Of a stretch of 64,000 bases of DNA, positions 14,889-47,629 are shown in pieces (position 1 is the stretch's first letter; each line of letters starts with the position of its first letter). Made by a program: the position numbers and the translations under genes. Source of the stretch: an uncultured Acidobacteriota bacterium (lineage in GTDB: Bacteria; Acidobacteriota; Thermoanaerobaculia; UBA5066); the NCBI GenBank assembly GCA_963836285.1, contig CAWIIN010000002.1:1650386-1714385 (forward strand), read 5' to 3'. A model generated the notes under the pieces. That model was not told where the DNA came from. It made no database searches and saw only the letters and a program-made list of their open reading frames with translations.

Positions 14889-14898
14889 AGGAGCCGCC

Positions 14899-15540: not shown

Positions 15541-15547
15541 GGATCGC

Positions 15548-18203: not shown

Positions 18204-18213
18204 TGTCGCTCCC

Positions 18214-19032: not shown

Positions 19033-19132
19033 CGTCTCTCCCCTCGATTCGTCTGCCGGGCCCTTTCCGGAGAGGATAACCGCACCGCCATTCCACGGGT
19101 ACCGGACCCGCGGGATCCCGCCGGAGCATGCG

Positions 19133-20992: not shown

Positions 20993-21943
20993 TTGCCTCA
21001 CGTCGAGCCGCCCGTCACACTCGCCCGGCTCCGCCACTACCGGAAGCTGACGAAGGCGGTGTCGGCGCATCTTCGCGCCCAGCTCGAGACGACGCTCGAG
21101 ACGCTCACGCCGCTCTTTCACGCCGAGACCGTCTTCGGGGACTACGTCCAGAAGAGCGTGCTGTCGGCCAAGGCCGAGGTCGAGGCGGGGCCGCGTGCCC
21201 AGCTCGGGCCCGACCGCTGGGGCCGCGGGTCGGAGCTCGCGATGGCGCGCGGGCCGGCCGCGCCACCGACGGCAAAGGAGCTCGAGGACGCCCGGAAGTA
21301 CGCGAAGGCGAACATCTCACTGAAGGAGGCCGTGAAGGGCGCCGACCGCGCGTTTCACGACCTCGAGAGCCTCTACGACGGTATCGCCAAGAAGAAGCCC
21401 TACGATCTCGGAATCGGCCTGACTCCGCCTCTCCCCATCAACACCGCGGCTCTCGAGATCCTCCCGCTGGACTATCCCCACGTCGCGCGCTCGGAGCGCC
21501 AGACGAAGCGCGTCATGGTCACGGCGCCTCTGACGTGGATCGTGACGTATGCGGGGTGCTCTCTCGGGCGCCTGCGCGCGCTCATCGCGGACCCGAACCG
21601 CTCACGCGACGAGCTCCAGCGCGTCCTGACGCACCACCTGCTCCTGCACGTCGTGCTGGAGCGCAAGAGCGGCCTTCGCGAGCTTCTCGAAGCGCTGAAT
21701 TTTCCCGTGAGGTCCGAAACGCTGCCGGAGTTCGGCGCGCTTCCCCTGACGGTCGTCACGTCGGCGGTGAAGACGGAGCGCCCGTCCGACGACGTCATCC
21801 TGGAGAGCACCGATCTTTCGGGCGTCGACGCGACCGAGGAGATCGTCCGCGTGACGAACGTCGCCGGAATGGTCGACAGGCGCCGGGCGCGCCTGCTCGA
21901 GATCGTCGAAGCCGAGGAGACCGGGGCGGGCGAAGACGCCTGA
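20993..21943 (+). CDS. Uncharacterised protein, paralog A of a tandem pair
   Basis: 316 aa, TTG start. Aligns along its whole length with the downstream ORF (LRHYRKLTKAVSAHLRAQLE / LRSLRKLTRAIAESLRTELK; PLDYPHVA / PLEYPHVA; TAPLTWIVTY / TQPLKWIVTY). Confidence 0.55.
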   Translation: MPHVEPPVTLARLRHYRKLTKAVSAHLRAQLETTLETLTPLFHAETVFGDYVQKSVLSAKAEVEAGPRAQLGPDRWGRGSELAMARGPAAPPTAKELEDARKYAKANISLKEAVKGADRAFHDLESLYDGIAKKKPYDLGIGLTPPLPINTAALEILPLDYPHVARSERQTKRVMVTAPLTWIVTYAGCSLGRLRALIADPNRSRDELQRVLTHHLLLHVVLERKSGLRELLEALNFPVRSETLPEFGALPLTVVTSAVKTERPSDDVILESTDLSGVDATEEIVRVTNVAGMVDRRRARLLEIVEAEETGAGEDA

Positions 21944-21976
21944 GGCGTCCCGCGACGAACGGAGGATTCACCCCAG

Positions 21977-22753
21977 ATGGACCAAGCGTACGACCTCCAG
22001 AAACTCCGGTCGCTCCGGAAGCTGACGCGGGCGATCGCGGAGTCGCTGCGCACGGAGCTCAAGGAGCATCTGGGCACCGTGACGCTCCTCTTCCGGCCGC
22101 GCACGATCCTGGGCGACTTCGTCGAGGGCAGCGTCAAGCGCGAGGTGAAGGGCTCGGACGTGGCATTCCGGGAACTGCGCAGCCGGTACGAGACCGTGGC
22201 AGGGGGGCGACCCTACGGGCTCTCGAAGGAACTGAATCCCCCGATCGAAATCCTGAACACGAACGTGGAGCTCGTCCCGCTCGAGTACCCGCACGTCGCA
22301 AAGGAAGGGTCGGAAACGAGGACGATCACCGTCACGCAGCCGCTCAAGTGGATCGTGACGTATTCGGGACTTGCACCCACGCGCCTCCGGGAGCTCATGG
22401 CGGCCAAGATCCCCGACGCCTCGCAGGTGAAGGAAATCATCGTGCACGCGCTCGTTCTGAACACCGTGCTCACGAGGCAACCGGGGCTTCTCGCGGTCTT
22501 CGAGGCTCTTCGCTTCCCCGTCGTCACCGAGAAACTGCCCGGCCTGGGCGAGCTCCCCGTCACCTGCATCTCCTCGAGCGTGCGGACGGTGCGGCCGCCG
22601 GACGACGTCCTGATCGAGAGCACGGAGATTTCGGGCCTGAACGCGTTCGAGGAAGTCGTGAATGCCAACGACATCGTGCAGATGCAGGACCCCTTCCGCG
22701 AAAGGCTCCTCGAGGTCATCAAGGAAAACGCGCCCGAGGCCCTGAAGGGCTGA
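21977..22753 (+). CDS. Uncharacterised protein, paralog B of a tandem pair
   Basis: 258 aa, ATG preceded by GGAGG. About 35-40% identity to paralog A by eye. Confidence 0.6.
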   Translation: MDQAYDLQKLRSLRKLTRAIAESLRTELKEHLGTVTLLFRPRTILGDFVEGSVKREVKGSDVAFRELRSRYETVAGGRPYGLSKELNPPIEILNTNVELVPLEYPHVAKEGSETRTITVTQPLKWIVTYSGLAPTRLRELMAAKIPDASQVKEIIVHALVLNTVLTRQPGLLAVFEALRFPVVTEKLPGLGELPVTCISSSVRTVRPPDDVLIESTEISGLNAFEEVVNANDIVQMQDPFRERLLEVIKENAPEALKG

Positions 22754-22786: not shown

Positions 22787-24343
22787 TCAGGCCTCGAGCA
22801 ACGCCAGGCGGCCCACGCGCTCGAAGTTCGAGGCGATTCCCTCCTCGACGTCGGCGGCGAGAGCCGCGTTCGCGGGGTCCCGCTCCCGAAGGGCGGCTTC
22901 CATCTCAGCGGTGATCGCCGCGCGGCCGCGCGTGCCGTCCAGGAGCAGGAGAAACGTCCGCACGAGCGGGTCCTCGAGCCGGATCGACTGGTGCCTGAGG
23001 TTCGTGACCGGCGCCGACGTGCGCGCCTGGAGGCGGGCGAGGGCGCTCGCGCGCGGGCGCTCCGAGACCTCCGTGACGAAGGGGCACGGCGCGCTCTTAA
23101 GGTCGGCGAGGTCGGCGCCATAGGCCGCGAGAAGGAAGCGGAGCAGGCGAGCCTCGTCCTCGGTGGTGGCGGCCCGCCCGCCGGAGGAAGACAAACGGGC
23201 CCGGGCCGCGGAGAAAAGGTCCGTCGTCCGTATCCATCGAGGCCAGATACGCCCGAGCTCGAGAAACGCCGCCTTCGAGAGGGGATGCGACGTCGTCAGC
23301 TCGCCTTCCTTCTCGAACGTGAAGCTCATCGGCGCGTCGGATGCCACGTCGGCGCCGGAGGACGGTCTTGTGCTCGCGCAGACGTGAAGGGCGCGGATGG
23401 CCTCGGGGTCCGGCTCGTGAGAAGGGGAGGCGGCTTCCCTGCAGAGGAGCGTCTGGCGGAAGCGCCGGAAGAGCAGGAAATCGCGGTACTGTTGCTGGAG
23501 GATCAGGTTCTCGGAGCCCACCGCGAGGAGGAACCGGCCGGCCGGGCTGTCCTCCTTCCAGACGGTCATGTCGGAGTAGTCGGCTTCCGAAAGGAACTTG
23601 AGACCGTGTCGGGCCGCGCGCTCGACGAAGTCGACGAAAAGGAGGGGCTCGTTGATCTCGGCCAGGTCGTCGTGGAACAGGACGGCGTCCGGCTGGCTCG
23701 CCAGGTGGTCGATCGTCTCGCGCAGGATCGCCGAGTAGACAGGACGTGGCGGAGCCGCATCCCCGAGGAGCCGCACGAGACCCCGCGCCTGCTCGATTCT
23801 CGAGGCGGGCTCCTCCTCGCCCCGCACGTGCCAGCGCATCATCTGGCGTACGGCGTTCCTCACATGGCATCCCGGGAGCGCGTTGTAGCTCACGTACGCG
23901 ACGCCGTTCGGAGCGAGCGACTCGGAGGCGATCGCGAACACCCGCTCCTGGACGGCAGGCGGCACCCACGAGTAGAGGCCGTGCGCGACGACGTAGTCGA
24001 ACGTGCCGAGTCCGGAGACGTCCAGGAGGTCGGCGTGCTCGAGCGTCACGTTCGCGAGACCGAGGGCGGAAACCTGCGCCTGCCCCTGCTCGATGGCGGA
24101 GCGCGCCGCGTCGAGGCCGAGGAAGGTGCTTCCGGGAAGGGCGTATGCCATCGGGACGAGATTTCCCCCGTTCCCGCAGCCGAGCTCGAGCACGCGGCAG
24201 CGTTCGGGAGGAGCGGCGCTGAGGCCGTACAGCGCCGCGATCGTCGCGAGGCGGTCCGGATGTGCCTGGCAGAACGGCGAGCCGGGATACGAGACGGAAT
24301 CGTATGGGGTCGGCTCGTTTTCGGGCATCGGGTCCGCGATCAT
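22787..24343 (-). CDS. Class I SAM-dependent methyltransferase fused to a C-terminal methyltransferase-regulatory-like domain
   Basis: Start ATG 24343 (MIADPMPENEP). LELGCGNGGNL SAM motif I. Long C-terminal domain resembling the MethyTransf_Reg architecture. The upstream 274 codons of ORF 22787..25165 were rejected. Confidence 0.65.
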   Translation of the reverse strand: MIADPMPENEPTPYDSVSYPGSPFCQAHPDRLATIAALYGLSAAPPERCRVLELGCGNGGNLVPMAYALPGSTFLGLDAARSAIEQGQAQVSALGLANVTLEHADLLDVSGLGTFDYVVAHGLYSWVPPAVQERVFAIASESLAPNGVAYVSYNALPGCHVRNAVRQMMRWHVRGEEEPASRIEQARGLVRLLGDAAPPRPVYSAILRETIDHLASQPDAVLFHDDLAEINEPLLFVDFVERAARHGLKFLSEADYSDMTVWKEDSPAGRFLLAVGSENLILQQQYRDFLLFRRFRQTLLCREAASPSHEPDPEAIRALHVCASTRPSSGADVASDAPMSFTFEKEGELTTSHPLSKAAFLELGRIWPRWIRTTDLFSAARARLSSSGGRAATTEDEARLLRFLLAAYGADLADLKSAPCPFVTEVSERPRASALARLQARTSAPVTNLRHQSIRLEDPLVRTFLLLLDGTRGRAAITAEMEAALRERDPANAALAADVEEGIASNFERVGRLALLEA

Positions 24344-24405
24344 AGAACGGCGGCTCCTGGTCATCCCTCGCGCTAGACTCGGTCGCGATCCTGAGGAGGC
24401 CGCGA

Positions 24406-25889
24406 TGCCGAAGAGCCCGCCATCCCGCGACGTCGACGTGAGGCTGGGGACGGAGACGGCGCCCGCGCCGCTCGACCCTGACGCCCCGTTCCGGCTGCTC
24501 GTGATCGGCGACTTCGGCGGCGCCGGGACCGGGCCCCTCGTGACCCCTCGTGCCGTGGACCGGGATGTCCTCGAGGACGAGATGCGCCGCCTGCGGGCGA
24601 CCGTGGACGTGCCCGTCGGCGACGGGGAGGAAGCCCGCATCGACCTGCGAGAGCTCGACGACTTCCACCCCGACCGGCTTCTCGAACGCGTCGAGGCTCT
24701 GGCGGCGTGGGGGAGGACGCGCGAGCGCCTCGAGGACCCCCGCACGTTCGGCGACGCGGCGCGCGACATGCGCGCGTGGGCGGGAACGGCTCCCGTGAAG
24801 CCGGCAGAGGCGCCGGCGTCCGCTGCCGCCGCGGCGGACGACATCGTGGGCGATCTCCTCGCGGGGGCCGCCCGGCGGGCGAAACCCGCCGCGGACGCCG
24901 CGTTCGAATCCGAGGTGAAGGCGATCGTGCGGCCGCATCTCGCCCCCGAGGAGGATGCCGATCTGCCGCGCCTCCGGCAGGCGCTGGACGACGTCCGCTC
25001 GAGCCTGCTGCGGACGATCCTCGCGCACGCCGGGTTCCGTAGGGTCGAAGCCGCGTGGCGCTCGCTCGATCTCCTCGTGCGCCGGGTCGACGACGAGTCC
25101 GTCCGCGTCTTCTTCCTCGACGCGCCCCGCGACGTGCTTCTCGAGGACCTCACGCGCCACGACACCCTCTCGGCGACCGGCCTGTACCGGTGCCTCGTCG
25201 CCGAGACGGTCGAGACGCCGGGAGCCGAGCCCTGGGGCGCGATCCTCGGTCTCTATGACTTCGGGCCGACGCTCGCCGACGCCGCCCTCCTCTCGCGGAT
25301 CTCGAAGCTCGCCCGTGCCGCGGGCGCCCCGTTCCTCTCCGGCGCGCGCTCCGATTTCGTCGGTTGCGCGTCGCTCGCCGTGACGCCGGATCCCTCGGAC
25401 TGGCGCACGCCCGCGGGAGAAGGCGCGCTCGTCTGGGACGAGCTCCGGGCACTGCCGGAGGCGACGTGGATCGCACTCGCCCTGCCGCGGCTCATGCTGC
25501 GCCTGCCGTATGGAACGAAGACGGACCCGATCGACACATTCGCGTTCGAAGAGGTGCCCGGCGTGCCGTCGAACGGAGATTATGTGTGGGGAAATGGAGC
25601 CGTCGCGTGCGCCCTCGTTCTCGCGGGCGCCTTCGAGCAGGACGGGTGGTCCCTGCGTCCCGAGACCGCGGCCGAGATTACGGGCCTTCCGACGCACGTC
25701 TTCAAGGACGGCCTCGAGACCCGCGTGACGCCGCCCTCCGAAGTCGTCCTCACGATGCGCGCCGCCGACAAGATTCTCGAGGCCGGTCTCGTCCCCGTGC
25801 TTTCGCTGAAGGGGAGCGAGAGCGTGCGCGTCGCGCGCCTGCAGGCGATCGCGAGCCCGCTCCGCGCACTCGCGGGACGCTGGAGCTAG
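24406..25889 (+). CDS. Orphan single-chain TssB-TssC fusion (sheath-like) protein
   Basis: Residues ~30-110 align with TssB/VipA from this same window (FRLLVIGDFGG vs FVVGVLGDFSG; IDLRELDDFHPDRLLERVEAL vs MKFNNMMDFEPDQVVQQVEPL). The remainder aligns with TssC (LPRLMLRLPYG vs LPHTLMRLPYG; FAFEEVPG vs FNFEEDVDG; GLPTHVF vs GLPAHTF). Confidence 0.7.
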
Positions 25890-25921: not shown

Positions 25922-26824
25922 GTGGCTCACTTCACGAATGCACAGGGCGTGCGCATTTCCGGACAGGCCCTCGTCGTGCAGGTCGGCGAGAGCAAGGAGA
26001 TCGGTCTCTGGGGCTTCCGCGACTTCGGCGGCCAGCCGCTCAACGTGGACGTGATGACGCCGAACGGCCAGCAGTGCTCGGACATCGCGAGCGTGTTCCA
26101 GGTGCGCGAGCAGGGCGACACGCGCTTCTACCGCGTGCGCGGCCTCACGGCCGGAAGCGGCCGCGTCGACGCCCTTCAGGGAGTCGCGAACACGTGGGAC
26201 TGGGTGAGCCTCACCGTCTCCGGTGCACCGTCGGGTCTCGACAGGCTCGTGAGGGCGCTCGGGGACGGGACCCTGAGGACCAGTCCGGGGGACGCGAGCT
26301 TCCTCCACGCGGCCGCCGCGGGATCGGCGACCCTCGCCCTCGATCCGCTGATCGTGATCCTCCTGAACAATCTCCTCACGTTCGGGGGCGTCGACGTCCT
26401 CAGTCTCCTCAGGCGCGGCCAGAGCCAGCACGGCGTCGTGAGCGGAAACCTCGTCACGTGCAAGGCGGTCGACATCCAGGGATACCGCGGCATTCCCGTC
26501 AGGCTGCAACCGCGCGACATGGCGATCAACGTCGTGTGCTCGATCCTCGAGCGCTTTCCGGACGGGCAGTTCGACCTCGGGTTTCCGAGGCCCGTCGGCG
26601 GTCCGACCGGGTTCAACCCGTCCGACGACGTCTTCTTCGCGGTGCCCGACCTCGCGACCGCTCAGCAGTGCTGGAACGGCACGATCAGCCGGTCGCTCGG
26701 GCAGATGATGCGGCCGGCTCAGGATCGTGTCCGCATGGCGATGTCTCCGCGAGCGCGATTCCGCATCCTTTATCCGGACGGCCTCAACCACCTTCACGTC
26801 TCCGTGACACGCAGCCCGATCTGA
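25922..26824 (+). CDS. Hypothetical protein (about 300 aa) directly downstream of the TssBC fusion
   Basis: GTG start at 25922 with GAGGAGG 7 nt upstream. No recognisable motif, no TM segment, one Cys pair. Confidence 0.5.
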   Translation: MAHFTNAQGVRISGQALVVQVGESKEIGLWGFRDFGGQPLNVDVMTPNGQQCSDIASVFQVREQGDTRFYRVRGLTAGSGRVDALQGVANTWDWVSLTVSGAPSGLDRLVRALGDGTLRTSPGDASFLHAAAAGSATLALDPLIVILLNNLLTFGGVDVLSLLRRGQSQHGVVSGNLVTCKAVDIQGYRGIPVRLQPRDMAINVVCSILERFPDGQFDLGFPRPVGGPTGFNPSDDVFFAVPDLATAQQCWNGTISRSLGQMMRPAQDRVRMAMSPRARFRILYPDGLNHLHVSVTRSPI

Positions 26825-26849
26825 AGCGTTCGGGTTGGAGGGACGCGCC

Positions 26850-28088: not shown

Positions 28089-28107
28089 TGCCGGGGCACG
28101 CTGCTTC

Positions 28108-28545
28108 TCAATTGAGGGAGACGGACCCGCCCTTGATGCGGTTCATGCGTTTCGCGTGCGAGACGAGGTCCTTGCCCTTGATGAGGATCTTCCCGTCGGC
28201 GCGGATCTCGATCGAGCCCTCCCCGACGCGGAGGACGAGGCCCTTCTTCGCCTCGAGGACGAGCTCGCCGGGGAGTCGCGCCTCATCACCGGCCGAAGAC
28301 CCGATGCGGCCGACGACGACGGCGCGGGACCCTTCGGGCGGAATCCAGACGAGGACGTCATCGCCGGGGAGAAAGGCGAGAGGGGAAGCATCCGACGTCC
28401 GGAGCGTGTCGGCGGCAAACGCGGCCTTCTCGTCCGAAACCGTCACGCTCAAGGCACCGTGCTCGTCGACGTCGAGGACCTTGGCGCGTTGAAGGGTGGC
28501 GGGCACGCGGACGGCCTCGTGAGGTCTCTGTGGTCGCATCGTCAT
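28108..28545 (-). CDS. Small gpV/gp5-like OB-fold spike-domain protein (tentative)
   Basis: 145 aa. N-terminal OB-like segment (AKVLDVDEHGALSVTV...PGDDVLVWIPPEGSRAVVVGRI) and C-terminal beta-strand repeat (IEIRADGKILIKGKDLV) resemble phage baseplate protein V. Confidence 0.4.
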   Translation of the reverse strand: MTMRPQRPHEAVRVPATLQRAKVLDVDEHGALSVTVSDEKAAFAADTLRTSDASPLAFLPGDDVLVWIPPEGSRAVVVGRIGSSAGDEARLPGELVLEAKKGLVLRVGEGSIEIRADGKILIKGKDLVSHAKRMNRIKGGSVSLN

Positions 28546-28575
28546 CGTCCCTCCCTTCAGGAGCCTCGTCGGTGC

Positions 28576-29151: not shown

Positions 29152-29159
29152 GCAGCCTC

Positions 29160-39446: not shown

Positions 39447-42170
39447 TCACTCGAACTCGTAGCGGAAGTTCCCGCCGTCGCCCACCGTGACGCGCACGCG
39501 CGACATCGTCCGGCCCTCGGCCATGCGGGCGAGGAACTCGCCAGACATCTCCGGAAGGACCGTCCGCGTCAGGATGTGGTCGACGTTGCGGGCTCCGCTC
39601 TCGACTTCCTTGCACCGCGCCACGATCTCGGCGATGACCGCGTCGTCGTAGGCAAAGGACGCCCCGTGGTTCTCCTTGAGGCGGCTCCCGATCCGGCCGA
39701 GTTGCAGCTTGATGATCTCCCGCATGACCTTGTCCGAGATCGGGTAGTAGGGGACGACGACCATCCGGCCCAGGAGTGCCGGCTTGAAGATCTTGTTCAG
39801 CTCGGGCTTGATCGCCTCCACGAGCTTGTCGGGCTCGGGCGCGGTCTCCGGATCGGCGCAGAGCTTCATGAGCGTGTCGGTGGCGGCGTTGGACGTCAGG
39901 AGGATGACGGTGTTCTTGAAGTCGATCTCGCGCCCCTCGCCGTCCTCGAGCATTCCCTTGTCGAAGACCTGGTAGAAGAGCTCCATGACGTCGGGGTGCG
40001 CCTTCTCGACTTCGTCGAGGAGGACGACCGAGTACGGCCGGCGCCGGACGGCCTCCGTCAGGACGCCGCCTTCACCGTACCCAACGTACCCCGGGGGAGA
40101 GCCCTTGAGCGAGGAGACGGTGTGCGCTTCCTGGTATTCGCTCATGTTGATCACGATCAGGTTCCGCTCGCCGCCGTAGAGCGTCTCGGCGAGCGTGATC
40201 GCCGTCTCCGTCTTTCCGACGCCGCTCGGTCCGACGAGGAGGAAGACGCCGATGGGCCGGCGCGGGTCCGTCAGGTTCGCGCGCGCGGTCCGGATCCGGC
40301 TCGCGATCGCCTCGAGAGCATGCGATTGCCCGATGACGCGCTGTTCGAGCCGGTCCTTGAGCTGGAGGACCGTATGGATCTCGTCCGTCAGCATCTTGCC
40401 GACGGGGATTCCCGTCCAGCCGGAAATGACCTCGGCGATCGTCTGCGACGTCACGCACGCCTGCATGAGGGGCGTCTCGCCCTGGAGCTTCTCGAGCTCC
40501 TTGTTCAGCTTGTCGAGCTCGGCCTTCAGGACCGCCGGGTCCACGGGCGGTCCCGCGGGCGCCGCGGAAGCAGGTGCGGCGGCGGGCGCGGCCTTCGCTC
40601 CCGCTCCCTTCGCCTTGGCGGCCTTCTTTCTCGGCGCCGCGAGTTCCTCGAGGTTCGACCGGATGTCGCGGATCCTCCCGATCAGATCGCGCTCCCTGTC
40701 CCACTGCGTCTTCAGGACAGCGAGGCTCTCTTCCGCCGCCGTCGTTCGAGCCTTCAGCTCCGCGAGGCGCTCCCCGTGGTTGGCACCGGTCGCCTCCTCG
40801 CGCGTCAGGACTTCGATCTCGGACGTGCAGTGGTCGATGGACCGCTGCGCGTCCTCGACGGCCGGCGGCGTCGCAGCCTGGCCGATCGCGACGCGGGCGC
40901 AGGCGGTGTCGAGGACCGACACGGACTTGTCCGGAAGCTGCCGCCCCGAGATATAGCGGTGCGACAGACGGACCGCGTCCTCCACCGCCTCGTCGAGGAT
41001 CCTCACGCCGTGGTGGTTCTCGAGCGGCTCCGTGAGCCCGCGCATCATGATGATGGCCGTCGCCTCGGTCGGTTCCTCGACCTTGACGACCTGGAACCGC
41101 CGGGCCAGCGCGGCGTCCTTCTCGAAGTACTTCTTGTACTCGGCCCATGTCGTCGCCGCGATCGTCCGCAGCTCGCCGCGCGCGAGGGCCGGCTTCAGGA
41201 GGTTCGCGGCGTCGTTCTGGCCCGCCTGCCCCCCCGCTCCGATCATCGTGTGCGCCTCGTCGATGAAGACGATAATCGGCTGGGGCGAGCCCTTCACCTC
41301 CTCGATGACCGACTTCAGGCGGTTCTCGAACTCGCCCTTGATTCCGGCTCCGGCCTGGAGGAGCCCGAGGTCGAGGGTCCTCACGGCGACGTTCTTGAGT
41401 GGACCGGGGACGTCGCCCTGGGCGATGCGCAGGGCGAAGCCCTCGACGACCGCCGTCTTTCCGACGCCCGCCTCGCCGGTGAGGATCGGGTTGTTCTGGC
41501 GGCGGCGCGTCAGGATGTCGATGACCTGGCGGATCTCGAAGTCCCGGCCGAGGATCGGGTCGATGTGGCCCGCCCTGGCGCGCGCCGTCAGGTCGACGGT
41601 GTACTGGTCGAGCGCCTTCGTGCGGCCCGGGACGCCCGTCGCACCGCCCGCGGCGTCGCCGGCCGGCGCTTCCCCGAGCGAGGAGGCGTCGCGGTCCTCG
41701 ACGGATCCCGAGACGATCTTGTCGAGGTCCTTTCGAAGCGCCTCGACGGAGATCGCCGCGAACTCCTTGGAGATCTCGCGGGCGAGGCGGGCGAACTCCT
41801 CCTTCTCGAGGAGGGCGAGGAGGATGTGCGCGGAGCGCACGCGCGCGGCGCCGAAGTCGATCGAGCCGAGGAGCCACGCCTCCTCGACGAGCTTCGGCAG
41901 GCGCGGAGAGAGCGCCGGCGTCCGGGTGTTCCCGGTCTTGAGGCGGTCGAGAGACCGCACGAGGTCCTTCGCGAGACGGGACTCGTCGACCTCGAAGCGG
42001 CGCAGGATCCGGTGGAAGTCCGTGTCCGGCGTCTCGCCCAGCTTCACGAGGAGGTGTTCGACATCGACGTCGTAGTTCGTCCGTGACAGGCAGAGCCCCG
42101 CGGCCCCCTCGAGAGCGTTCCGGCAGGTGTCGTTCAGTCGGCCGATGAGGGACTTCAGGTTCGCGCTCAT
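39447..42170 (-). CDS. clpV: Type VI secretion ATPase ClpV/TssH
   Basis: 907 aa, two AAA+ modules (GEAGVGKT, GPSGVGKT Walker A), ClpV N-domain. Confidence 0.95.
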   Translation of the reverse strand: MSANLKSLIGRLNDTCRNALEGAAGLCLSRTNYDVDVEHLLVKLGETPDTDFHRILRRFEVDESRLAKDLVRSLDRLKTGNTRTPALSPRLPKLVEEAWLLGSIDFGAARVRSAHILLALLEKEEFARLAREISKEFAAISVEALRKDLDKIVSGSVEDRDASSLGEAPAGDAAGGATGVPGRTKALDQYTVDLTARARAGHIDPILGRDFEIRQVIDILTRRRQNNPILTGEAGVGKTAVVEGFALRIAQGDVPGPLKNVAVRTLDLGLLQAGAGIKGEFENRLKSVIEEVKGSPQPIIVFIDEAHTMIGAGGQAGQNDAANLLKPALARGELRTIAATTWAEYKKYFEKDAALARRFQVVKVEEPTEATAIIMMRGLTEPLENHHGVRILDEAVEDAVRLSHRYISGRQLPDKSVSVLDTACARVAIGQAATPPAVEDAQRSIDHCTSEIEVLTREEATGANHGERLAELKARTTAAEESLAVLKTQWDRERDLIGRIRDIRSNLEELAAPRKKAAKAKGAGAKAAPAAAPASAAPAGPPVDPAVLKAELDKLNKELEKLQGETPLMQACVTSQTIAEVISGWTGIPVGKMLTDEIHTVLQLKDRLEQRVIGQSHALEAIASRIRTARANLTDPRRPIGVFLLVGPSGVGKTETAITLAETLYGGERNLIVINMSEYQEAHTVSSLKGSPPGYVGYGEGGVLTEAVRRRPYSVVLLDEVEKAHPDVMELFYQVFDKGMLEDGEGREIDFKNTVILLTSNAATDTLMKLCADPETAPEPDKLVEAIKPELNKIFKPALLGRMVVVPYYPISDKVMREIIKLQLGRIGSRLKENHGASFAYDDAVIAEIVARCKEVESGARNVDHILTRTVLPEMSGEFLARMAEGRTMSRVRVTVGDGGNFRYEFE

Positions 42171-42219
42171 GAACGCTTCCTTCCTCTCTGTCTTTTCGTG
42201 CTCTTTTCGGGGCCCTATC

Positions 42220-43212
42220 CTAGTTCATGGACTCGAGAATCAGTTCGGAAGCGTCGGCCCGCGCAGGTTCGCTCCCGAGCCACGACGTCCACCCGAGCAT
42301 CGGAGGAACGGCGGCGGCCGAGCTCAGGTGACACTCCGGGATCTCTTCCTTCCTCAGGACGGGCTGCACGTCGAAGTCGTACTCGACGCCGACGAGAAAG
42401 CGGACGAGATCGTTCAGGGGCTTCCATCCGCTGCCGCGCGGCAGGAAGAGCTGAAAGGACCTGAAGTCGAGCGGCCCGAGCCGGATCCGGAATCGGGACT
42501 GGTTGCTCCAGACGTGGTCGCCGCAGACGAGGTCGGCGCCGAGGCGGCTGTTGCGGGCGCCGAGGCGTGACCTGTCGTCCGGCTCGAGGTCGAGCCACTG
42601 GCCGACGAACTGCCGCGTCGCCACGGGGACTCCGAAGTAGTCCCGCAGGATGCCCTCGAGGGCGCTCGCCGAGTGCGGGCGCTGCGAGACGAGCCCCGCG
42701 TACAGGAGGAGGGCGTCGTCGGGGACGCTCTGGCGTCCTCGAAGCCCGTTGGTGTCGAGGCCGATCAGCGCGAAGAGACCCTCGACGAACGGGTCGTCGC
42801 CCCCGCTCTCGTAGACGATCGGAAAGCGGTACTTCTGCCACGCGCGATGGAACAGGGAAAGGAACCGGTGGTTGAAGAGGTCGAGAAACTCCCAGAGCGC
42901 GAAGTCCTTGTACCGGATGCGCTCGGCGAGGAGCTCCGTGTACGGGATCGGAAGGACGCCGAGCGGTCCGGTCGTTCCCCCGATCGCGACGGTGACCTCG
43001 GTCGGGCGGTCGGGGTCGGCGGGATCGGGCTTGAGGTCGAAGATCTCGCTCGGCGGGAATTCCAGGGTCGCACGGGTGCGGAAGCGCGCGACTTCGAGCG
43101 CCGGGGGCCCGTCGTGACCGACGCGCGCGCGAGACGGGGAGAGTCGGGCCAGGAGCCTGACGGCCTGGAAGAACCCGAAGTGCTCGGGCCGGTTCCTCAG
43201 CCGTTCGGTCAA
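42220..43212 (-). CDS. tssG: Type VI secretion baseplate protein TssG
   Basis: 330 aa, TssG family N-terminus (PEHFGFFQAVRLL). Confidence 0.9.
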   Translation of the reverse strand: MTERLRNRPEHFGFFQAVRLLARLSPSRARVGHDGPPALEVARFRTRATLEFPPSEIFDLKPDPADPDRPTEVTVAIGGTTGPLGVLPIPYTELLAERIRYKDFALWEFLDLFNHRFLSLFHRAWQKYRFPIVYESGGDDPFVEGLFALIGLDTNGLRGRQSVPDDALLLYAGLVSQRPHSASALEGILRDYFGVPVATRQFVGQWLDLEPDDRSRLGARNSRLGADLVCGDHVWSNQSRFRIRLGPLDFRSFQLFLPRGSGWKPLNDLVRFLVGVEYDFDVQPVLRKEEIPECHLSSAAAVPPMLGWTSWLGSEPARADASELILESMN

Positions 43213-45065
43213 AGGACGATCTGGTCGCCCGTACGGGGCGGCCAGCGGCGCATCACGCCCTCACGCTGTTTCGTCGACGCCACGAGCTGACTGAAGGAGT
43301 TGACGGACGCGTAGAGAGAGAGGAAGCGCTCGAGAATGGACGCGAAGAGGTACACGCCCGAGCCCACGAAGTTCTGCTCGTCGAGCTCGATCGAAACTTC
43401 GAGTCCCCTCACGAACCCGGGATGGACGTCACGGAGGGGCCGGACGACCCGGCGCGAGGCGAGCTTCGAGAGCCCGTCGATCTGCTGCCGGGTGACCGAC
43501 GAGTCGGCGATGTCGTAGAGGCGAAGGATCTCGCGCAGTGCCTCCGGGCCCTTCTCTCCTTCGCGCTCGACGAGCGACAGGACGTTCAGCGCGAGGTGCG
43601 AGATGAGCCTCCAGTGGGCCCCCCGCCTCAGCGGCGGCCGCACGCTCGCGGTGGGCTTCACGAGGCTCCGGATCGCGGTGAAGACGCCCGGCCCCTCGAG
43701 CTGGAAGTCCCCGTCGGGATTGCCGAACGGGAGGCGGCCCGGAAGGTCGCGGTTCGAGGCCGTCACGTGCACGGTGAGGGTGTCGGTGTCCGGGACGGCC
43801 GGATCGAAGTTCATGTCCACGAGCGAGAGGTAGACTTCCGTCCCGCCGTCGTCCTTGCGCTCCGAGGGGCGTCGGCTCGCGTGCCAGAGCGCCTGCACCC
43901 CCGCGCGCTCGCCGCCGTGCCGAAACGCGAAGAACGGCTGGTACGTCCGGACGGTCTCGAGGTCGGCGCTCGTCGACGTCACGCTGTCGACGGACCAGAC
44001 CTCGTGCGCCCCCGGCCGCCTCAGGTTCGGGACGACGCGGTACTCATGGCTGAGGTGCGTGACACGGATCGGCTCGGCGAGCTGCGAGAACAGGTTGACG
44101 ACCGGCGTCGCGTGCAGACGGAACGTCTGCGCCGAGACGCTCCGCTCGGCGGCGAACGGCCGCGCGAGCAGGATCCGCACGTCGAGGGACTCCCCGAACC
44201 CGCGCCCCTGGAGCCGCTCGAGCCCGTCGAGGTCGACGAACAGGAACTTCTCCGGAAACGTGAAGTACTCCTGGACGACGCGATAGCCCCGGAACATCCG
44301 ATCCGGCGTCGGCAGGAGCGTCTCGTCATCCGCGAACCCGACGGGCCGGAGAGCCTCCGGACCGAGGGTGACGGCTTCCGAGTCGGGCGATGATGCCTGC
44401 GGACGCAGCTCGACGGCGAGCGCGTCGTTGAACAGCGCTTCGTAGAGCGCATGGACGACCTTCGCGTCGCCCTGCAGGTAGAACCGGAGCCGCGAGAGCG
44501 GCCGCTCGACGCCCTCGGCGATCTTCTCCTTGAGCTCTGAAAGGGCGGCTCCCCCCAGGACGCGCAGGTCGAGGCGAAGCGTCGTCCGCACGTCGCGGCC
44601 GCCGATCGTGACCGCCGGTGCCTGCTCGAATCGGGCCCCGCGCACCTCGATCGGCCAGATCGTGACGGGGTACGCGGTCCGGAAGCGGCACGGGATCCCG
44701 TCGACGGGTGCGGACGCGAGCGTCGATCCCTTGGGAATCGTCTGGCCCGTCTGCAGGCTCACCTGATCCGCGTTCAGGACGAACTGGGCCACGGACATCG
44801 AGGGGACGGGCGCGAGGAATGTCGGGTAGAGGATCCCGAGGAGGGACTCCGTGATTTCCGGGAATTCGTCGTCGATCTTGAGGCGCACGCGCGCCGCGAG
44901 GAACGCGAACGCCTCGAGCAGCCTCTCGACGTGCGGGTCCTCGCATTTGTCCGGTTCGAGCTGGAGGCGTGACGCGACCTTCGGATACTTGTCGGCGAAC
45001 TCGGCCCCCATCTGCCGGAGGAAGGTGAGCTCGCGTTCGTAGTACTCGAGGAGATCGCCGCGCAT
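43209..45065 (-). CDS. tssF: Type VI secretion baseplate protein TssF
   Basis: Start ATG 45065 overlapping the tssE stop (ATGA). MRGDLLEYYERELTFLRQ N-terminus typical of TssF. The upstream 112 codons of the ORF were rejected. Confidence 0.9.
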   Translation of the reverse strand: MRGDLLEYYERELTFLRQMGAEFADKYPKVASRLQLEPDKCEDPHVERLLEAFAFLAARVRLKIDDEFPEITESLLGILYPTFLAPVPSMSVAQFVLNADQVSLQTGQTIPKGSTLASAPVDGIPCRFRTAYPVTIWPIEVRGARFEQAPAVTIGGRDVRTTLRLDLRVLGGAALSELKEKIAEGVERPLSRLRFYLQGDAKVVHALYEALFNDALAVELRPQASSPDSEAVTLGPEALRPVGFADDETLLPTPDRMFRGYRVVQEYFTFPEKFLFVDLDGLERLQGRGFGESLDVRILLARPFAAERSVSAQTFRLHATPVVNLFSQLAEPIRVTHLSHEYRVVPNLRRPGAHEVWSVDSVTSTSADLETVRTYQPFFAFRHGGERAGVQALWHASRRPSERKDDGGTEVYLSLVDMNFDPAVPDTDTLTVHVTASNRDLPGRLPFGNPDGDFQLEGPGVFTAIRSLVKPTASVRPPLRRGAHWRLISHLALNVLSLVEREGEKGPEALREILRLYDIADSSVTRQQIDGLSKLASRRVVRPLRDVHPGFVRGLEVSIELDEQNFVGSGVYLFASILERFLSLYASVNSFSQLVASTKQREGVMRRWPPRTGDQIVL

Positions 45066-45547
45066 CACTCGCCCTTCACCGCAAACGTCCCGCTGCCGAT
45101 CTGAAGCGTCGTGTCGAACGAGATCGGCTCGGGCACCGGATCGATGCGGAGCCGCGCCTCGATCTTGAAGCGGAACGCGCGCTCCAGCGGCGAGGCGTTC
45201 GCGACCGTGACGACCACGTCCTCGAGGCGGGGCTCGAAGCGCTTGAGGACGGACTCGAGCGCGCGCGTGAGGTCGTTCTGGTCCCCGGAGCTCTTCACGC
45301 TGACGTTCGTGAAGTCCGGGAGCCCGTACGCGAGCATGGAGTCGGCGAGGAGCGGCAGGTCCGGGGGCACTTCGAAGACCCGCCGCGTATTCAGGAGCCA
45401 CTCGAGGTCGCGCTTGAGGGCCTGCTTGACCTGGCGGAGGGCCTTCGAGCGCGAGGGGGGGGCCTCGTTTCTGGCGTCCGGCTCGAAATCAATCAGCCGG
45501 TCGAGAACCGACAGGTTGATCCGGATCTCCTCGTCGATCCTCGCCAT
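45065..45547 (-). CDS. tssE: Type VI secretion baseplate protein TssE (gp25-like)
   Basis: 160 aa, GPW/gp25 family. Confidence 0.9.
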   Translation of the reverse strand: MARIDEEIRINLSVLDRLIDFEPDARNEAPPSRSKALRQVKQALKRDLEWLLNTRRVFEVPPDLPLLADSMLAYGLPDFTNVSVKSSGDQNDLTRALESVLKRFEPRLEDVVVTVANASPLERAFRFKIEARLRIDPVPEPISFDTTLQIGSGTFAVKGE

Positions 45548-45609: not shown

Positions 45610-47097
45610 CTACTTCCTCGACGGCGGGGGCAACTCGGCCACCAGCCGCAGGGAGACCGAGAGCTCATCCAGCTGGAAGTGCGGCCTCAGGAAGGCGATC
45701 GCCTTGTAGACGCCGGGCTTGCCGGGCACCTCCGCGACCTCGATGCGGGCCTCGCGAAGCGGGAACTGCGCCTTGACCGCAGGCGACGCGGTGTCGTCCG
45801 GCGTGACGTAGTTCGAGATCCACTTGTTGAGGAAGAACTCGACGTCGGCGCGGGAGGCGAAGCTGCCGATCTTGTCGCGCATGATCGCCTTGAGGTAGTG
45901 CGCGAAACGGGACACCGCGAAGATGTAGGGGAGCTGCGTCGACAGGCGCGCGTTCGCGTTCGCGAAATCCGTATCGTATTTCTTCGCTTTTTGCGCCGAC
46001 TGCCCGCCGAAGAACGCGGCGTAGTCTGTGTTCTTGCAGTGAACGAGCGAGATGAAGCCGAGGTCCGAGAACTCCTTCTCGCGGCGGTCCGTGATGGCGA
46101 TCTCCGTCGGGCATTTCAGGGCCACGTCCCCTTCGTCCGTCTGGAACGTGTGTGCCGGGAGCCCCTGCACGAGCCCGCCTCCCTCGACGCCCCGGATCGC
46201 GACGGTCCAGTTGTAGAGCGCGAACGCTTCGGTCAGACGCGTCCCGTACGAGTACGCCGCGTTCCCCCAGAGGTACTTCTTGTGGTCCTTGCCGTCCACG
46301 TCCTCCTCGAAGTTGAAGGACTCGACCGGGACGGTGTCCTTTCCGTAGGGGAGGCGCATGAGCGTGTGAGGAAGGGTGAGGCCAACGTAGCGCGAGTCTT
46401 CGGAGTCCCGGAACGAGCGCCACTTCGCATACTCGGTCCGGTCGAAGATCTTCGCGAGGTCGCGCACCTCCGTGAGCTCCGTATAGGTCTGCCACCCGAA
46501 CATCTCGGGAGAGGCCGCCGAGATGAAGGGAGCGTTCGCCGCCGCGGCGACGCCCGAGATCTTCTCGAGAAGCGACATGTCCTGGGGATGGTTGCCGAAC
46601 TCGTAGTCCCCGATCATGGCGCCGAACGGCGCGCCTCCGAACGTTCCGTACTCCTCCTCGTAGATTTTCTTGAAGAGCGCGGACTGGTCGAACTCGGCGG
46701 CCCGCTCGAGGTCCTTGAGGAGGTCCTTCTTGGACACGTTCAGGACCCGGATCTTCAGCATCGTCGAGGTCTCGCTCTCGAAGACGAGGTGGTGCAGGCC
46801 GCGCCAGCTCCCCTCGAGCTTCTGGAAGTCCGGGTGGTGCATGACCTCGTTGAGCTGCGCAGACAGGAGCTTGTCGATCGCCGCGATGCGGGCGTTGATC
46901 GTGTGCTCGAGATCCTTGGAGAGGACGACCTGCCCCTGAAGGGCCTGCTGGACGAACTCTGCCAGCATGTCCTTCGCGGTGTCGACCTGGTCCTCGCGGA
47001 GTGCGAGGCGGCCGCTGTCGAGGATCTTGTTGAGCAGCCCCCCGCCGTCCTGCTCCTGGACGACGGATTCGGCCTTCTTCTCGGGGTTCTTACTCAT
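45610..47097 (-). CDS. tssC: Type VI secretion sheath large subunit TssC/VipB
   Basis: 495 aa, canonical TssC motifs (LPHTLMRLPYG, FNFEE). Confidence 0.95.
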   Translation of the reverse strand: MSKNPEKKAESVVQEQDGGGLLNKILDSGRLALREDQVDTAKDMLAEFVQQALQGQVVLSKDLEHTINARIAAIDKLLSAQLNEVMHHPDFQKLEGSWRGLHHLVFESETSTMLKIRVLNVSKKDLLKDLERAAEFDQSALFKKIYEEEYGTFGGAPFGAMIGDYEFGNHPQDMSLLEKISGVAAAANAPFISAASPEMFGWQTYTELTEVRDLAKIFDRTEYAKWRSFRDSEDSRYVGLTLPHTLMRLPYGKDTVPVESFNFEEDVDGKDHKKYLWGNAAYSYGTRLTEAFALYNWTVAIRGVEGGGLVQGLPAHTFQTDEGDVALKCPTEIAITDRREKEFSDLGFISLVHCKNTDYAAFFGGQSAQKAKKYDTDFANANARLSTQLPYIFAVSRFAHYLKAIMRDKIGSFASRADVEFFLNKWISNYVTPDDTASPAVKAQFPLREARIEVAEVPGKPGVYKAIAFLRPHFQLDELSVSLRLVAELPPPSRK

Positions 47098-47629
47098 GGG
47101 GCTCTTCCTTCTTCTCTTCGTCGTCCGTCACGACGCCGAGCTGTTTGCCGAGCTGCTTCTGGGCATTCGGGTCCTTGAGGAGGTCCGTCAGCATGGCCTC
47201 GAGCTTGTCGTTGCCGTCCGTCTTCGACAGGATGTCGCGGAGCTTCTGGCGCGCCTCGACGAGCTTGCGCAGGGGCTCGACCTGCTGCACGACCTGGTCG
47301 GGCTCGAAGTCCATCATGTTGTTGAACTTCATCTCGACGTTCATCTTGCTGCCGTCGTCCGAGAGCTTGTTGTCGACGCGCAGCGCGAGGCGCGGCGCCT
47401 GCGCCGCGAGGACCTGGTCGAAGTTGTCGCGGTCGATTTCGATCAGCTTCCGGTCCTTCAGTCGCGGGAGCGGCTCGACGGGCTGGCCGGAAAAGTCGCC
47501 GAGCACCCCGACGACGAACGGGAGCTCCTTCATTTCGATCGCGCCCCCGATCTCCACGTCGTACGTGATCTGAACGCGGGGAGGGCGGATCCTCTTGAGT
47601 TTCTGCTGGATGCTTTCCTTCTTCGGCAT
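47090..47629 (-). CDS. tssB: Type VI secretion sheath small subunit TssB/VipA
   Basis: ATG 47629 preceded by GGGAGGGAG. 179 aa, VipA family (GVLGDFSG). Overlaps the tssC start by 8 nt. Confidence 0.9.
   Translation of the reverse strand: MPKKESIQQKLKRIRPPRVQITYDVEIGGAIEMKELPFVVGVLGDFSGQPVEPLPRLKDRKLIEIDRDNFDQVLAAQAPRLALRVDNKLSDDGSKMNVEMKFNNMMDFEPDQVVQQVEPLRKLVEARQKLRDILSKTDGNDKLEAMLTDLLKDPNAQKQLGKQLGVVTDDEEKKEEPHE

What the first reader, a model, noticed from the sequence alone, without database searches (positions are those of the whole stretch)
24406..25889. Orphan single-polypeptide TssB-TssC (VipA-VipB) sheath fusion outside the main T6SS cluster
About 20 kb from the canonical tssB/tssC pair sits a 495-aa protein whose first ~110 residues align with TssB. 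The rest aligns along its length with TssC. The TssB part matches FRLLVIGDFGG and the DFHPDRLLERVEAL helix. The TssC part matches LRLPYG, FAFEE and GLPTHVF. Canonical T6SS sheaths are obligate heterodimers of two separate proteins, so a compact fusion lacking the normal TssB C-terminal region is unusual. It could be a second sheath for an uncharacterised contractile device, a regulator that caps or poisons the sheath, or a domesticated remnant. No hcp, tssE-G or vgrG accompany it. Its neighbours are all uncharacterised: a CxxCxxCC protein, two tandem paralogs, a methyltransferase, a 301-aa unknown and a HEAT protein.
Basis: partly seen in the sequence, partly recalled or inferred. Interest (0 to 1): 0.85.

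Follow-up and report, generated by a model that had tools for sequence, protein, structure and literature searches.

The report
Sheath-derived TssB–TssC fusion, T6SS accessory
A real, widely conserved gene fuses the small and large subunits of the type VI secretion "spring" into one protein but drops the domain the spring needs to polymerise, so it is probably an undescribed helper of the machine and not a second spring.

Summary
Window 24405-25889 (+) encodes a 494-aa protein with a TssB/VipA-like N-terminus (Pfam 32.5 bits, above cut-off; HHalign 98.5% to the window's own TssB) joined to a TssC/VipB N-terminal domain (188 bits).

The whole C-terminal gp25-like "handshake" domain of TssC (PF18945) is absent.

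The gene is not orphan. It lies inside an extended T6SS locus, with Fha, PpkA-like and PppA-like regulators on one side and a vgrG-DUF2169-PAAR-toxin module plus the core genes on the other.

Full-length relatives occur in at least 437 species, including Acidobacteriota, Desulfobacterota, Planctomycetota and Gemmatimonadota. In 41 of 80 fetched loci, T6SS core genes lie within 10 kb. Eighteen of those loci also carry separate tssB and tssC. Recurrent positions are clpV-[fusion]-vgrG, [fusion]-tssB and tssK-[fusion].

The family keeps an N-terminal donor-strand motif, a ClpV-binding-type helix in a disordered linker, and its own C-terminal G-R-W tail.

Best reading, inferred only: a non-extendable sheath protomer that docks on the sheath end or on TssE and can be addressed by ClpV. 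I found no description of it, and a 2026 review of T6SS accessory factors does not list it.

The parts
24405..25889 (+). Fusion gene, 494 aa plus stop: TssB-like module, linker, then TssC N-terminal domain. No TssC C-terminal domain.
24417..24488 (+). N-terminal arm, residues about 5-28. It is an amphipathic strand motif: DVDVRL here, F-x-F-G-x-[IV]-x-[LVF] in most of the family. It corresponds to the TssB N-terminal linker strand (QITYDVE in the window's TssB).
   Evidence: HHalign register. The motif recurs across phyla. pLDDT is 33-39 in the monomer model, as expected for a strand that orders only in trans.
24489..24782 (+). TssB-like core, residues 29-126: strands 29-35, 66-72 and 75-80, plus the DFHPDRL helix.
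   Evidence: PF05591 at 32.5 bits. HHalign to window TssB 20-137. Invariant D86, H88, P89, D90.
24783..24962 (+). Low-complexity linker, residues 127-186. It contains a helix (residues about 145-157, nt 24837-24875; DDIVGDLLAGAARR) equivalent to the TssC N-terminal, ClpV-binding-type helix.
   Evidence: HHalign aligns it to GGLLNKILD of window TssC. It is an island of conservation in a variable linker. It mirrors the cognate TssC helix in 14 other genomes. pLDDT is 42-47.
24963..25832 (+). TssC N-terminal (middle-layer, 'domain 2') module, residues 187-476. It includes LEAAWR, PRLMLRLPYG, FAFEE and VWGN.
   Evidence: PF05943 at 188 bits. Matches PDB TssC chains at E 4e-39. Foldseek 3.3 A over about 305 residues.
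25833..25886 (+). Family-specific C-terminal tail, residues 477-494: ARLQAIASPLRALAGRWS. P485 and L489 are invariant; G491, R492 and W493 are invariant or nearly so. It replaces the whole TssC C-terminal domain.
   Evidence: pLDDT is 81-94.
22787..24343 (-). Divergently transcribed SAM methyltransferase of the protein-lysine-MTase (PKMT) type. It is a recurrent immediate neighbour of the fusion.
   Evidence: Pfam MethyTransf_Reg, Methyltransf_12/25 and PKMT_2nd. It lies within 213 bp of the fusion in 10 loci, in both orientations.
20993..22753 (+). Two tandem paralogues (20993-21943 and 21977-22753) of a conserved family of about 258 aa with unknown fold. The family is T6SS-linked in other genomes.
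   Evidence: 43% identical to each other. Next to the fusion in 8 loci. At the end of clpV-vgrG-effector arrays without the fusion in L087 and L088.
45610..47629 (-). Canonical tssC (45610-47097, with both PF05943 and PF18945) and tssB (47090-47629) of the same locus. This is the true sheath pair.
45065..45547 (-). tssE (gp25-like). It is the homologue of the domain the fusion lacks and a candidate docking partner.
   Evidence: PF04965. Coordinates.
39447..42224 (-). clpV. It is a candidate partner of the linker helix, and the orthologous fusion directly follows clpV in Desulfobacterota and Methylomirabilis loci.

Best explanation
**What it is.** The gene encodes a conserved T6SS accessory protein that arose from the sheath itself. 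It is a paralogue in which the structured part of TssB is fused, through a flexible linker, to TssC lacking its C-terminal gp25-like domain. That missing domain is the inner-layer 'domain 1'. In published sheath structures it carries the acceptor hairpin of the inter-subunit 'handshake' and the C-terminal donor strand.

**What it keeps.** It retains everything by which a sheath protomer docks onto something else:
- the TssB-type N-terminal donor strand;
- the TssB/TssC middle and outer domains;
- the TssC-type N-terminal helix that ClpV recognises in other systems.

It cannot accept strands from a following ring.

**Proposed mechanism (inferred, not shown).** It acts as a non-extendable protomer.
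1. It binds free acceptor sites, either on the distal-most sheath ring or on TssE in the baseplate.
2. It thereby caps, terminates or gates sheath polymerisation.
3. Its permanently exposed helix lets ClpV remove it.

The neighbouring protein-methyltransferase may modify it or its partners.

**What is shown and what is inferred.** Shown: domain content, conservation and T6SS linkage. Inferred: the binding site, the capping effect, removal by ClpV and methylation.
For: **Domain content**
- PF05591 plus PF05943 are present and PF18945 is absent.
- HHalign maps the protein to TssB 20-137 and TssC 12-361 of the same window.
- The fold matches TssC chains of solved sheaths.

**Selection**
- All 120 listed homologues are about 500 aa with the same architecture.
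- At least 437 species carry full-length relatives.
- 213 clusters at 50% identity match the N-terminal module alone.
- 37 columns are invariant.

**T6SS linkage**
- T6SS core genes lie within 10 kb in 41 of 80 loci, and in 28 of the 44 loci with at least 8 kb on both flanks.
- 18 loci also carry separate tssB plus tssC.
- Three syntenic positions recur across phyla.
- The window itself has Fha, kinases and PP2C on one side, and the vgrG module and core genes on the other.

**Retained docking elements**
- The N-arm motif and the C-tail are conserved across phyla.
- The linker helix is a conservation island of 1-2 bits against 2.5-3.2 bits in its flanks.
- It resembles the cognate TssC N-helix (mean 5.4 of 15 identical; cognate pairs exceed shuffled pairs, p = 0.005).

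**Literature frame**
- The handshake uses two C-terminal TssC strands as acceptor, and the TssB N-strand plus the TssC C-strand as donors (PMC5807055).
- Both linkers go to the ring nearer the baseplate, and TssE is proposed to accept those of the first ring (PMC5813253).
- The composition of the distal end is unresolved.
- ClpV binds the TssC N-terminal helix (PMC5048182).
Against: - There is no experimental or complex-prediction evidence for any binding partner.
- About half of the loci show no T6SS gene within 10 kb. Linkage is therefore frequent but not obligatory, and I could not check whether those genomes have a T6SS elsewhere.
- In the window's own clade the linker helix has diverged from the LLDQ-type motif, which weakens the ClpV argument for this particular gene.
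- The helix co-variation test uses phylogenetically non-independent genomes.
- The C-terminal tail is confidently folded in the model. It may simply cap the surface left bare by the lost domain and need not be an interaction motif.
- A negative role (brake) and a positive role (cap or stabiliser) cannot be told apart.
Confidence: 0.45

Rival explanations
1. It is a soluble ClpV-directed regulator, acting as decoy, adaptor or timer. On this reading the protein does not join the sheath lattice. Its exposed TssC-type helix occupies or recruits the ClpV N-domain and so tunes when and where sheaths are disassembled.
For: - The gene directly follows clpV with gaps of 12-110 bp in L004, L017 and L025.
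- The helix is conserved inside a disordered, otherwise variable linker and mirrors the cognate TssC helix.
- ClpV N-domains bind exactly this TssC element (PMC5048182).
Against: - A decoy would need only the helix. Yet the whole TssB/TssC body, the N-arm and a specific C-tail are conserved over about 490 residues.
- In many Acidobacteriota the gene is next to tssB or tssK and far from clpV.
- The helix is degenerate in the window's clade.
Confidence: 0.2
2. It is a baseplate collar, or 'split protomer', that works with TssE. TssE would supply the gp25-like domain 1 in trans, and the fusion would supply domains 2 and 3. Together six pairs would form a complete sheath-like ring 0 that stabilises the baseplate and seeds or restrains the first true sheath ring.
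For: - The missing piece (PF18945, 'gpW/gp25-like domain') is the homologue of TssE.
- Segments nearly identical between the fusion and canonical TssC (PRxxLRLPYG, FxFEE, LWGN) stay conserved although domain 1 is gone.
- The gene is immediately adjacent to a duplicated tssK, a baseplate gene, in L069, L085 and L086.
Against: - In wild-type sheaths both linkers point towards the baseplate. A ring-0 protomer would therefore have nothing to give its N-arm to.
- The gene is never adjacent to tssE in the 80 loci.
- Well-studied baseplates need no such component.
Confidence: 0.15
3. It is a genuine second contractile sheath subunit that polymerises by itself.
For: It has the TssB and TssC folds in one chain.
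Against: - It lacks the handshake acceptor and the C-terminal donor strand.
- The TssC C-terminus is required for tubule formation (PMC3597794 abstract).
- No second hcp or tssE accompanies it, and 18 loci carry a normal tssB/tssC beside it.
- The downstream 300-aa gene is not the missing domain.
Confidence: 0.03
4. It is a decaying remnant or an assembly or annotation artefact.
For: None beyond its unusual architecture.
Against: - The ORF is intact and has an RBS.
- The identical protein is found on two assemblies.
- Full-length conservation spans several phyla, with invariant family-specific residues.
Confidence: 0.01

Closest known systems
Canonical T6SS sheath protomer TssB/TssC (VipA/VipB, HsiB1/HsiC1, IglA/IglB)
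   Same: It has the same folds for the TssB core and the TssC N-terminal domain. It shares the motifs DFxPD, LE..WR, PRxxxRLPYG, FxFEE and LWGN. It also has the N-terminal strand and the TssC-type N-helix.
   Different: It is one polypeptide where the sheath has two. It has no TssC C-terminal gp25-like domain (handshake acceptor plus C-terminal donor) and no TssB C-tail. It has its own conserved C-terminal G-R-W tail. It scores below both NCBIfam equivalog cut-offs and is encoded in addition to a normal tssB/tssC pair.
TagA/TsmA and long TssA (distal-end stop-and-hold or cap factors), and TsmB/TagJ (firing coordinators)
   Same: The proposed role is the same general kind: an accessory factor encoded in T6SS loci that acts on sheath ends or on ClpV (review PMC13584744).
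   Different: There is no ImpA_N domain or any other similarity to these families. The fusion is derived from the sheath subunits themselves. No function has been tested.
TssE / phage gp25 sheath initiator
   Same: The relationship is complementary. TssE is a stand-alone copy of the sheath's inner domain, and the fusion is the sheath without that domain. Both would be single-purpose derivatives of a sheath protomer.
   Different: The domain content is the opposite. TssE is a core component with a known place in the baseplate, and the fusion has no demonstrated place.
Specialised sheath paralogues of extracellular contractile injection systems (Afp2/3/4, Pvc2/3/4) and cap proteins (Afp16/Pvc16). 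This comparison is from my own knowledge and was not tested here.
   Same: They set a precedent for extra sheath paralogues confined to one end of the tube, and for caps that end the handshake network.
   Different: Those paralogues keep the handshake domain and belong to a different sheath lineage. Foldseek matches to them are weak (E 1e-3 to 0.1).

Membership tests
TssB / VipA small sheath subunit (PF05591; TIGR03358) | Match to the family profile above the curated cut-off | tested here: inconclusive
   Pfam gives 32.5 bits against a cut-off of 24, so that test is met. The NCBIfam equivalog gives 28.8 bits against a cut-off of 97.25, so that test is not met. HHalign to the window's TssB gives 98.5%. 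It is homologous but not an equivalog.
TssB / VipA small sheath subunit (PF05591; TIGR03358) | Separate polypeptide of about 170 aa, including the C-terminal tail | tested here: not met
   It is fused to a TssC-like domain. Only TssB residues 20-137 of 176 are represented.
TssC / VipB large sheath subunit (TIGR03355; PF05943 + PF18945) | N-terminal sheath domain PF05943 | tested here: met
   188.2 bits over residues 193-474. PDB TssC chains match at E 4e-39. Foldseek gives 3.3 A over about 305 residues.
TssC / VipB large sheath subunit (TIGR03355; PF05943 + PF18945) | C-terminal gp25-like domain PF18945 (handshake acceptor strands and C-terminal donor strand) | tested here: not met
   There is no PF18945 hit. 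The window's real TssC has one at 157.9 bits. The alignment ends at TssC residue 361 of 495. None of the 120 listed homologues has PF18945.
TssC / VipB large sheath subunit (TIGR03355; PF05943 + PF18945) | Score above the equivalog cut-off | tested here: not met
   179.1 bits against a cut-off of 271.5.
TssC / VipB large sheath subunit (TIGR03355; PF05943 + PF18945) | Polymerises with TssB around Hcp into a contractile tubule | not testable with these tools
   Predicted not to, because the TssC C-terminus is required for tubule formation (PMC3597794 abstract; PMC5807055).
T6SS-associated (accessory) gene | Recurrent location inside or next to T6SS core gene clusters in unrelated lineages | tested here: met
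   41 of 80 species loci have core genes within 10 kb, and 28 of the 44 loci with long flanks do. Three conserved positions recur across phyla.
T6SS-associated (accessory) gene | Affects T6SS assembly, firing or secretion | not testable with these tools
   This needs genetics and imaging.
TssA / TagA (TsmA) family of sheath-end factors | ImpA_N domain (PF06812) | tested here: not met
   The fusion has no such hit. The window's TssA has one at 117 bits.

The most novel reading that the evidence does not exclude
The fusion is a new class of T6SS 'firing coordinator' built from the sheath itself. It would be a chain-terminating protomer that caps the distal sheath ring, or blocks TssE, through its N-terminal donor strand. 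ClpV would strip it off through its exposed TssC-type helix. The adjacent protein methyltransferases may control it. This would give T6SSs of Acidobacteriota, Desulfobacterota, Planctomycetota and relatives a length- or firing-control mechanism with no counterpart in the model Proteobacteria.
Probability: 0.3. Interest if true: 0.8.

Novelty: new variant of a known kind. Interest (0 to 1): 0.62.

Why it matters
What sits on the distal end of a T6SS sheath, and how polymerisation is stopped or held, is only partly understood. It is known only for a few Proteobacteria (TssA, TagA/TsmA, TsmB, TagJ). The composition of the distal end in V. cholerae is still unclear (PMC5813253).

A sheath-derived subunit that can donate but not accept handshake strands would be a simple and testable answer to that problem. 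It is encoded in T6SS loci of hundreds of species from understudied soil and sediment phyla.

There is also a practical point. Databases currently name these proteins 'contractile sheath large subunit' or 'ImpC'. That naming inflates counts of sheath genes and of T6SS loci.

Tried and rejected
**Tests of the fusion gene**
- **Paired AF2 of the fusion with TssE.** I built a chimeric alignment of fusion, linker and TssE from 14 genomes (A3) to test docking.
- **AlphaFold-database fold search.** The library was not available.
- **C-tail as a mimic of the TssC C-terminal donor strand.** I compared PLRALAGRW with SLRLVAELP. The LR is not conserved in the family, so I dropped the idea.
- **Downstream 300-aa gene as the missing domain in a split gene.** It shows no similarity to it, and it is absent from the other loci.
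- **PADLOC.** The fusion and the paralogues have no defence-system match. Only the methyltransferase weakly resembles mad2.
- **Promoter and terminator scan around the gene.** It found nothing, which is uninformative in a genome with 70% G+C.

**Test of the neighbouring paralogue**

**Literature**
- Seven full-text searches found no description of such a fusion.
Full report
**1. The observation**

Window 24405-25889 (+) is an intact ORF of 494 codons plus stop, with GAGGAGG just upstream.

- Pfam finds T6SS_VipA (PF05591, 32.5 bits, cut-off 24) on residues 10-111 and VipB (PF05943, 188 bits) on residues 193-474.
- NCBIfam's equivalog models for TssB and TssC both hit, but far below their cut-offs (28.8 against 97.25; 179 against 271.5). 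The protein is therefore a homologue of both and an equivalog of neither.
- A 40-member family profile aligns residues 13-116 to residues 20-137 of the window's own 176-aa TssB (98.5%). It aligns residues 138-475 to residues 12-361 of the window's own 495-aa TssC (100%).
- An AF2 model (pLDDT 78.9, pTM 0.78) superposes on TssC chains of solved P. aeruginosa, V. cholerae and M. xanthus sheaths over about 305 residues at about 3.3 A.

An assembly chimera is excluded for three reasons:
- the identical protein is on two assemblies;
- all 120 listed homologues have the same two-domain, roughly 500-aa build;
- a scan of one genome per species found at least 437 species with a relative, and the best 80 are full-length.

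The N-terminal module alone retrieves 213 clusters at 50% identity at E <= 1e-10, mostly proteins of 470-535 aa.

**2.

The TssC part does not run 'along its length'. The protein ends about where TssC residue 361-370 would be, and the C-terminal gp25-like domain (PF18945) is absent. The real TssC of the window has it at 158 bits, and none of the listed family members has it.

Salih et al. (PMC5807055) describe the sheath protomer as follows:
- Domain 1, the inner layer, holds the 'handshake'. Two C-terminal TssC strands accept a donor strand from the C-terminus of a neighbouring TssC and another from the N-terminus of a neighbouring TssB.
- Domain 2 is the mixed TssB/TssC sheet.
- Domain 3 is a helical bundle that includes the TssC N-terminal helix.

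The fusion therefore equals domains 2 and 3 plus the TssB N-arm, without domain 1. The part of TssB that is missing (residues 138-176) aligns to nothing in the fusion. The solved VipA chain 3j9g_A is 125 residues long, which suggests this tail is not part of the ordered sheath core, though I did not check that directly. The decisive loss is on the TssC side. The 300-aa gene just downstream is not the missing domain.

**3. Context in the window**

The gene is not orphan. The surrounding genes are as follows.

| Coordinates | Strand | Gene or product |
|---|---|---|
| 13035-14885, 15413-16732 | + | two Ser/Thr kinases |
| 16728-18230 | - | PP2C phosphatase |
| 18217-19308 | - | FHA protein |
| 20053-20799 | + | CxxCxxCC protein |
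| 20993-21943, 21977-22753 | + | two paralogues |
| 22787-24343 | - | PKMT-type methyltransferase, divergent from the fusion |
| 24405-25889 | + | the fusion |
| 25922-26824 | + | 300-aa unknown |
| 26850-28088 | - | HEAT / TIGR02270 protein |
| 28108-28545 | - | 145-aa protein |
| 28576-29151 | - | Imm11 |
| 29160-30041 | - | AHH toxin |
| 30046-30432 | - | PAAR-like protein |
| 30437-31492 | - | weak ketoacyl-synthase-like protein |
| 31501-32517 | - | DUF2169 |
| 32531-34720 | - | VgrG |
| 35986-38691 | - | second VgrG with a peptidase M91 domain |
| 39447-59506 | mostly - | ClpV, TssG, TssF, TssE, TssC, TssB, TssA, TagJ (+), two Hcp, TssM, TssL, TssK |

The kinases, PP2C and FHA protein are of the PpkA, PppA and Fha classes of T6SS post-translational regulators. 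The array from vgrG to the PAAR-like gene has the layout of the recently described Tvp accessory systems (PMC13373197). The closest relatives are Thermoanaerobaculia MAGs (70-75% identity), so the window is probably from that class of Acidobacteriota. That assignment is an inference.

**4. Context elsewhere**

I searched the 80 best species loci with the window's T6SS proteins.
- 41 of 80 have core T6SS genes within 10 kb. So do 28 of the 44 loci with at least 8 kb on both sides.
- 18 also contain a separate canonical tssB plus tssC.

Three positions recur:
- tssA-B-C-hcp-E-F-G-clpV-[fusion]-vgrG, in Desulfobacterota and a Methylomirabilis-like MAG, where the fusion starts 12 bp after clpV (L004);
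- [fusion]-(methyltransferases)-tssB-C-hcp-tagJ-tssA-E-F-G-clpV, in Acidobacteriaceae and Terriglobia;
- tssM-L-K-x-K-[fusion], with the fusion 28-40 bp from a second tssK copy in L069 and L086.

Clustering all ORFs of the loci revealed further recurrent neighbours:
- the PKMT-type methyltransferase, an immediate neighbour in 10 loci in both orientations;
- a second methyltransferase family (MTS + DUF7059 + DUF7782, NPPF motif) in 13 loci, so that 19 of 83 loci have at least one of the two;
- the 258-aa paralogue family, in 8 loci.

That last family is also found without the fusion at the end of clpV-vgrG-effector arrays (L087, L088). About half of the loci show no T6SS gene nearby, for example L005 and L006. 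I could not test whether those genomes carry a T6SS elsewhere.

**5. Conserved elements that point to a mechanism**

- **(a) The N-arm.** The first 20 or so residues carry a motif that recurs across phyla (F-x-F-G-x-[IV]-x-[LVF]; DVDVRL in this clade). It aligns with the TssB N-terminal strand region. It is unstructured in the monomer model (pLDDT 33-39), as expected for a strand that only orders in a partner's sheet.
- **(b) The linker helix.** The linker between the two modules is variable and disordered, but it holds an island of conservation (1-2 bits of entropy against 2.5-3.2 in the flanks). That island aligns with the TssC N-terminal helix and resembles the cognate TssC helix of the same genome. 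In L016 TssC has KGLLDQIVEQGR and the fusion has GGLLDEIVEQSQ. In L017 TssC has KSLLDSIIDDSR and the fusion has GSLLDQIMDDVQ. Cognate pairs are more alike than shuffled pairs (p = 0.005), but the genomes are not independent. This helix is the element bound by the ClpV N-domain in V. cholerae and EAEC (PMC5048182). In the window's own clade it has diverged (DDIVGDLLAGAARR).
- **(c) Shared TssC segments.** The segments most conserved in TssC (PRxxLRLPYG, FxFEE, LWGN) are nearly invariant in the fusion too.
- **(d) The C-terminal tail.** A family-specific tail (RFQSIA-x-P...L-x-G-R-W) replaces domain 1.

**6. Most likely mechanism**

Nazarov et al. (PMC5813253) state that each sheath subunit sends its two linkers to subunits of the ring nearer the baseplate. 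They also state that TssE, a homologue of domain 1, is proposed to accept those of the first ring. The free acceptor sites are therefore on the distal-most ring and on TssE.

A protomer that has a donor N-arm and the normal body, but no acceptor domain and no tube-contacting layer, can bind such a site but cannot be built upon. I therefore propose that the fusion is a non-extendable sheath protomer that caps, terminates or gates sheath polymerisation. I further propose that its exposed TssC-type helix makes it removable by ClpV. The recurrent methyltransferases suggest that it, or its partner, is methylated.

All of this is inference from anatomy and context. Nothing here shows binding. The identity statement (a sheath-derived, T6SS-linked accessory protein that is not a polymerising sheath) I hold at about 0.85-0.9. 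The cap or terminator mechanism I hold at about 0.3-0.4, which gives 0.45 overall.

The rivals are:
- a soluble ClpV regulator (0.2);
- a TssE-partnered baseplate collar (0.15);
- a real second sheath (0.03);
- a remnant or artefact (0.01).

The second sheath is contradicted by the missing handshake domain and by the requirement of the TssC C-terminus for tubule formation (PMC3597794).

**7. Comparison with what is known, and novelty**

The protein is homologous to TssB and TssC but fails the defining features of both families. It is fused, it lacks the C-terminal domain, and it scores below the equivalog cut-offs. It has no ImpA_N domain, so it is not a TssA or TagA. Functionally it would sit among the 'firing coordinators' (TssA, TsmA/TagA, TsmB, TagJ).

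A 2026 review of T6SS accessory factors lists no sheath-derived protein and no methyltransferase (PMC13584744). Seven full-text searches found no description. Databases label family members 'ImpC' or 'contractile sheath large subunit', and NCBIfam has no model for the family.

I rate it a new variant of a known kind, and I set interest at 0.62. The family is widespread, well conserved, structurally suggestive and directly testable. Against that, its function is not shown and it occurs mostly in uncultured lineages.

Noticed in passing
[not shown]
   Followed up: partly
window 22787-24343 (-); L041-L044, L023, L047, L059; NPPF family e.g. L022 11674-13218: Two different SAM-methyltransferase families recur next to the fusion. 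One is PKMT-type with MethyTransf_Reg and a PKMT winged helix. The other is MTS + DUF7059 + DUF7782 with an NPPF motif. At least one is present in 19 of 83 loci, and sometimes both lie between the fusion and tssB. I found no mention of methyltransferases among T6SS accessory factors in the 2026 review.
   Followed up: partly
window 13035-19308: A set of T6SS-type post-translational regulators lies just upstream of the fusion neighbourhood. It comprises two Ser/Thr kinases (13035-14885 and 15413-16732), a PP2C phosphatase (16728-18230, -) and an FHA protein (18217-19308, -). PpkA-like kinases recur in 14 of the related loci.
   Followed up: partly
window 26850-34720 (-): This stretch carries vgrG, DUF2169, a weak ketoacyl-synthase-like 351-aa protein, a PAAR-like (Tox-PAAR-like/DUF4150-type) protein, an AHH nuclease toxin and Imm11. 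It also carries a 145-aa protein and a TIGR02270 HEAT protein. The layout resembles the class II Tvp accessory system described for P. aeruginosa PA0095-PA0099 (PMC13373197). In other loci the 145-aa protein sits between vgrG and DUF2169, where the DUF6484/TvpC-like gene would be. It has no significant Pfam hit.
   Followed up: partly
window 35986-38691 (-): A second VgrG carries a C-terminal Peptidase_M91 effector domain (61.6 bits). It is followed by unannotated 208-aa and 238-aa ORFs that may be immunity or adaptor genes.
   Followed up: no
L016, L030, L031, L065, L069, L084, L085 (e.g. L069 11453-12817 and 14512-15873): Many Terriglobia, Gemmatimonadota and Bryobacterales T6SS loci have two full-length tssK genes (both PF05936 above 430 bits in L069). 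They are separated by an unannotated gene of about 550 aa. The fusion lies directly beside one copy.
   Followed up: partly
L003 2041-3504: In a close relative from the same sequencing run, the fusion is followed by an Amidase_2 gene and then by a Phage_T4_gp19 (tail-tube family) gene of 297 aa. This hints at a contractile-tail-related gene other than hcp nearby.
   Followed up: no
window about 26825-26850 versus L001 about 2944-2956: The Logan contig that carries the identical fusion protein differs from the window by a 13-bp length difference in the intergenic region between the 300-aa gene and the HEAT gene. Coordinates are offset by 23881 before it and by 23894 after it.
   Followed up: no
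window 3147-5309 (+), 11944-13176 (-): A dynamin-family GTPase and a Porphyromonas-type peptidyl-arginine deiminase lie upstream of the T6SS-associated region. No link to the finding was examined.
   Followed up: no
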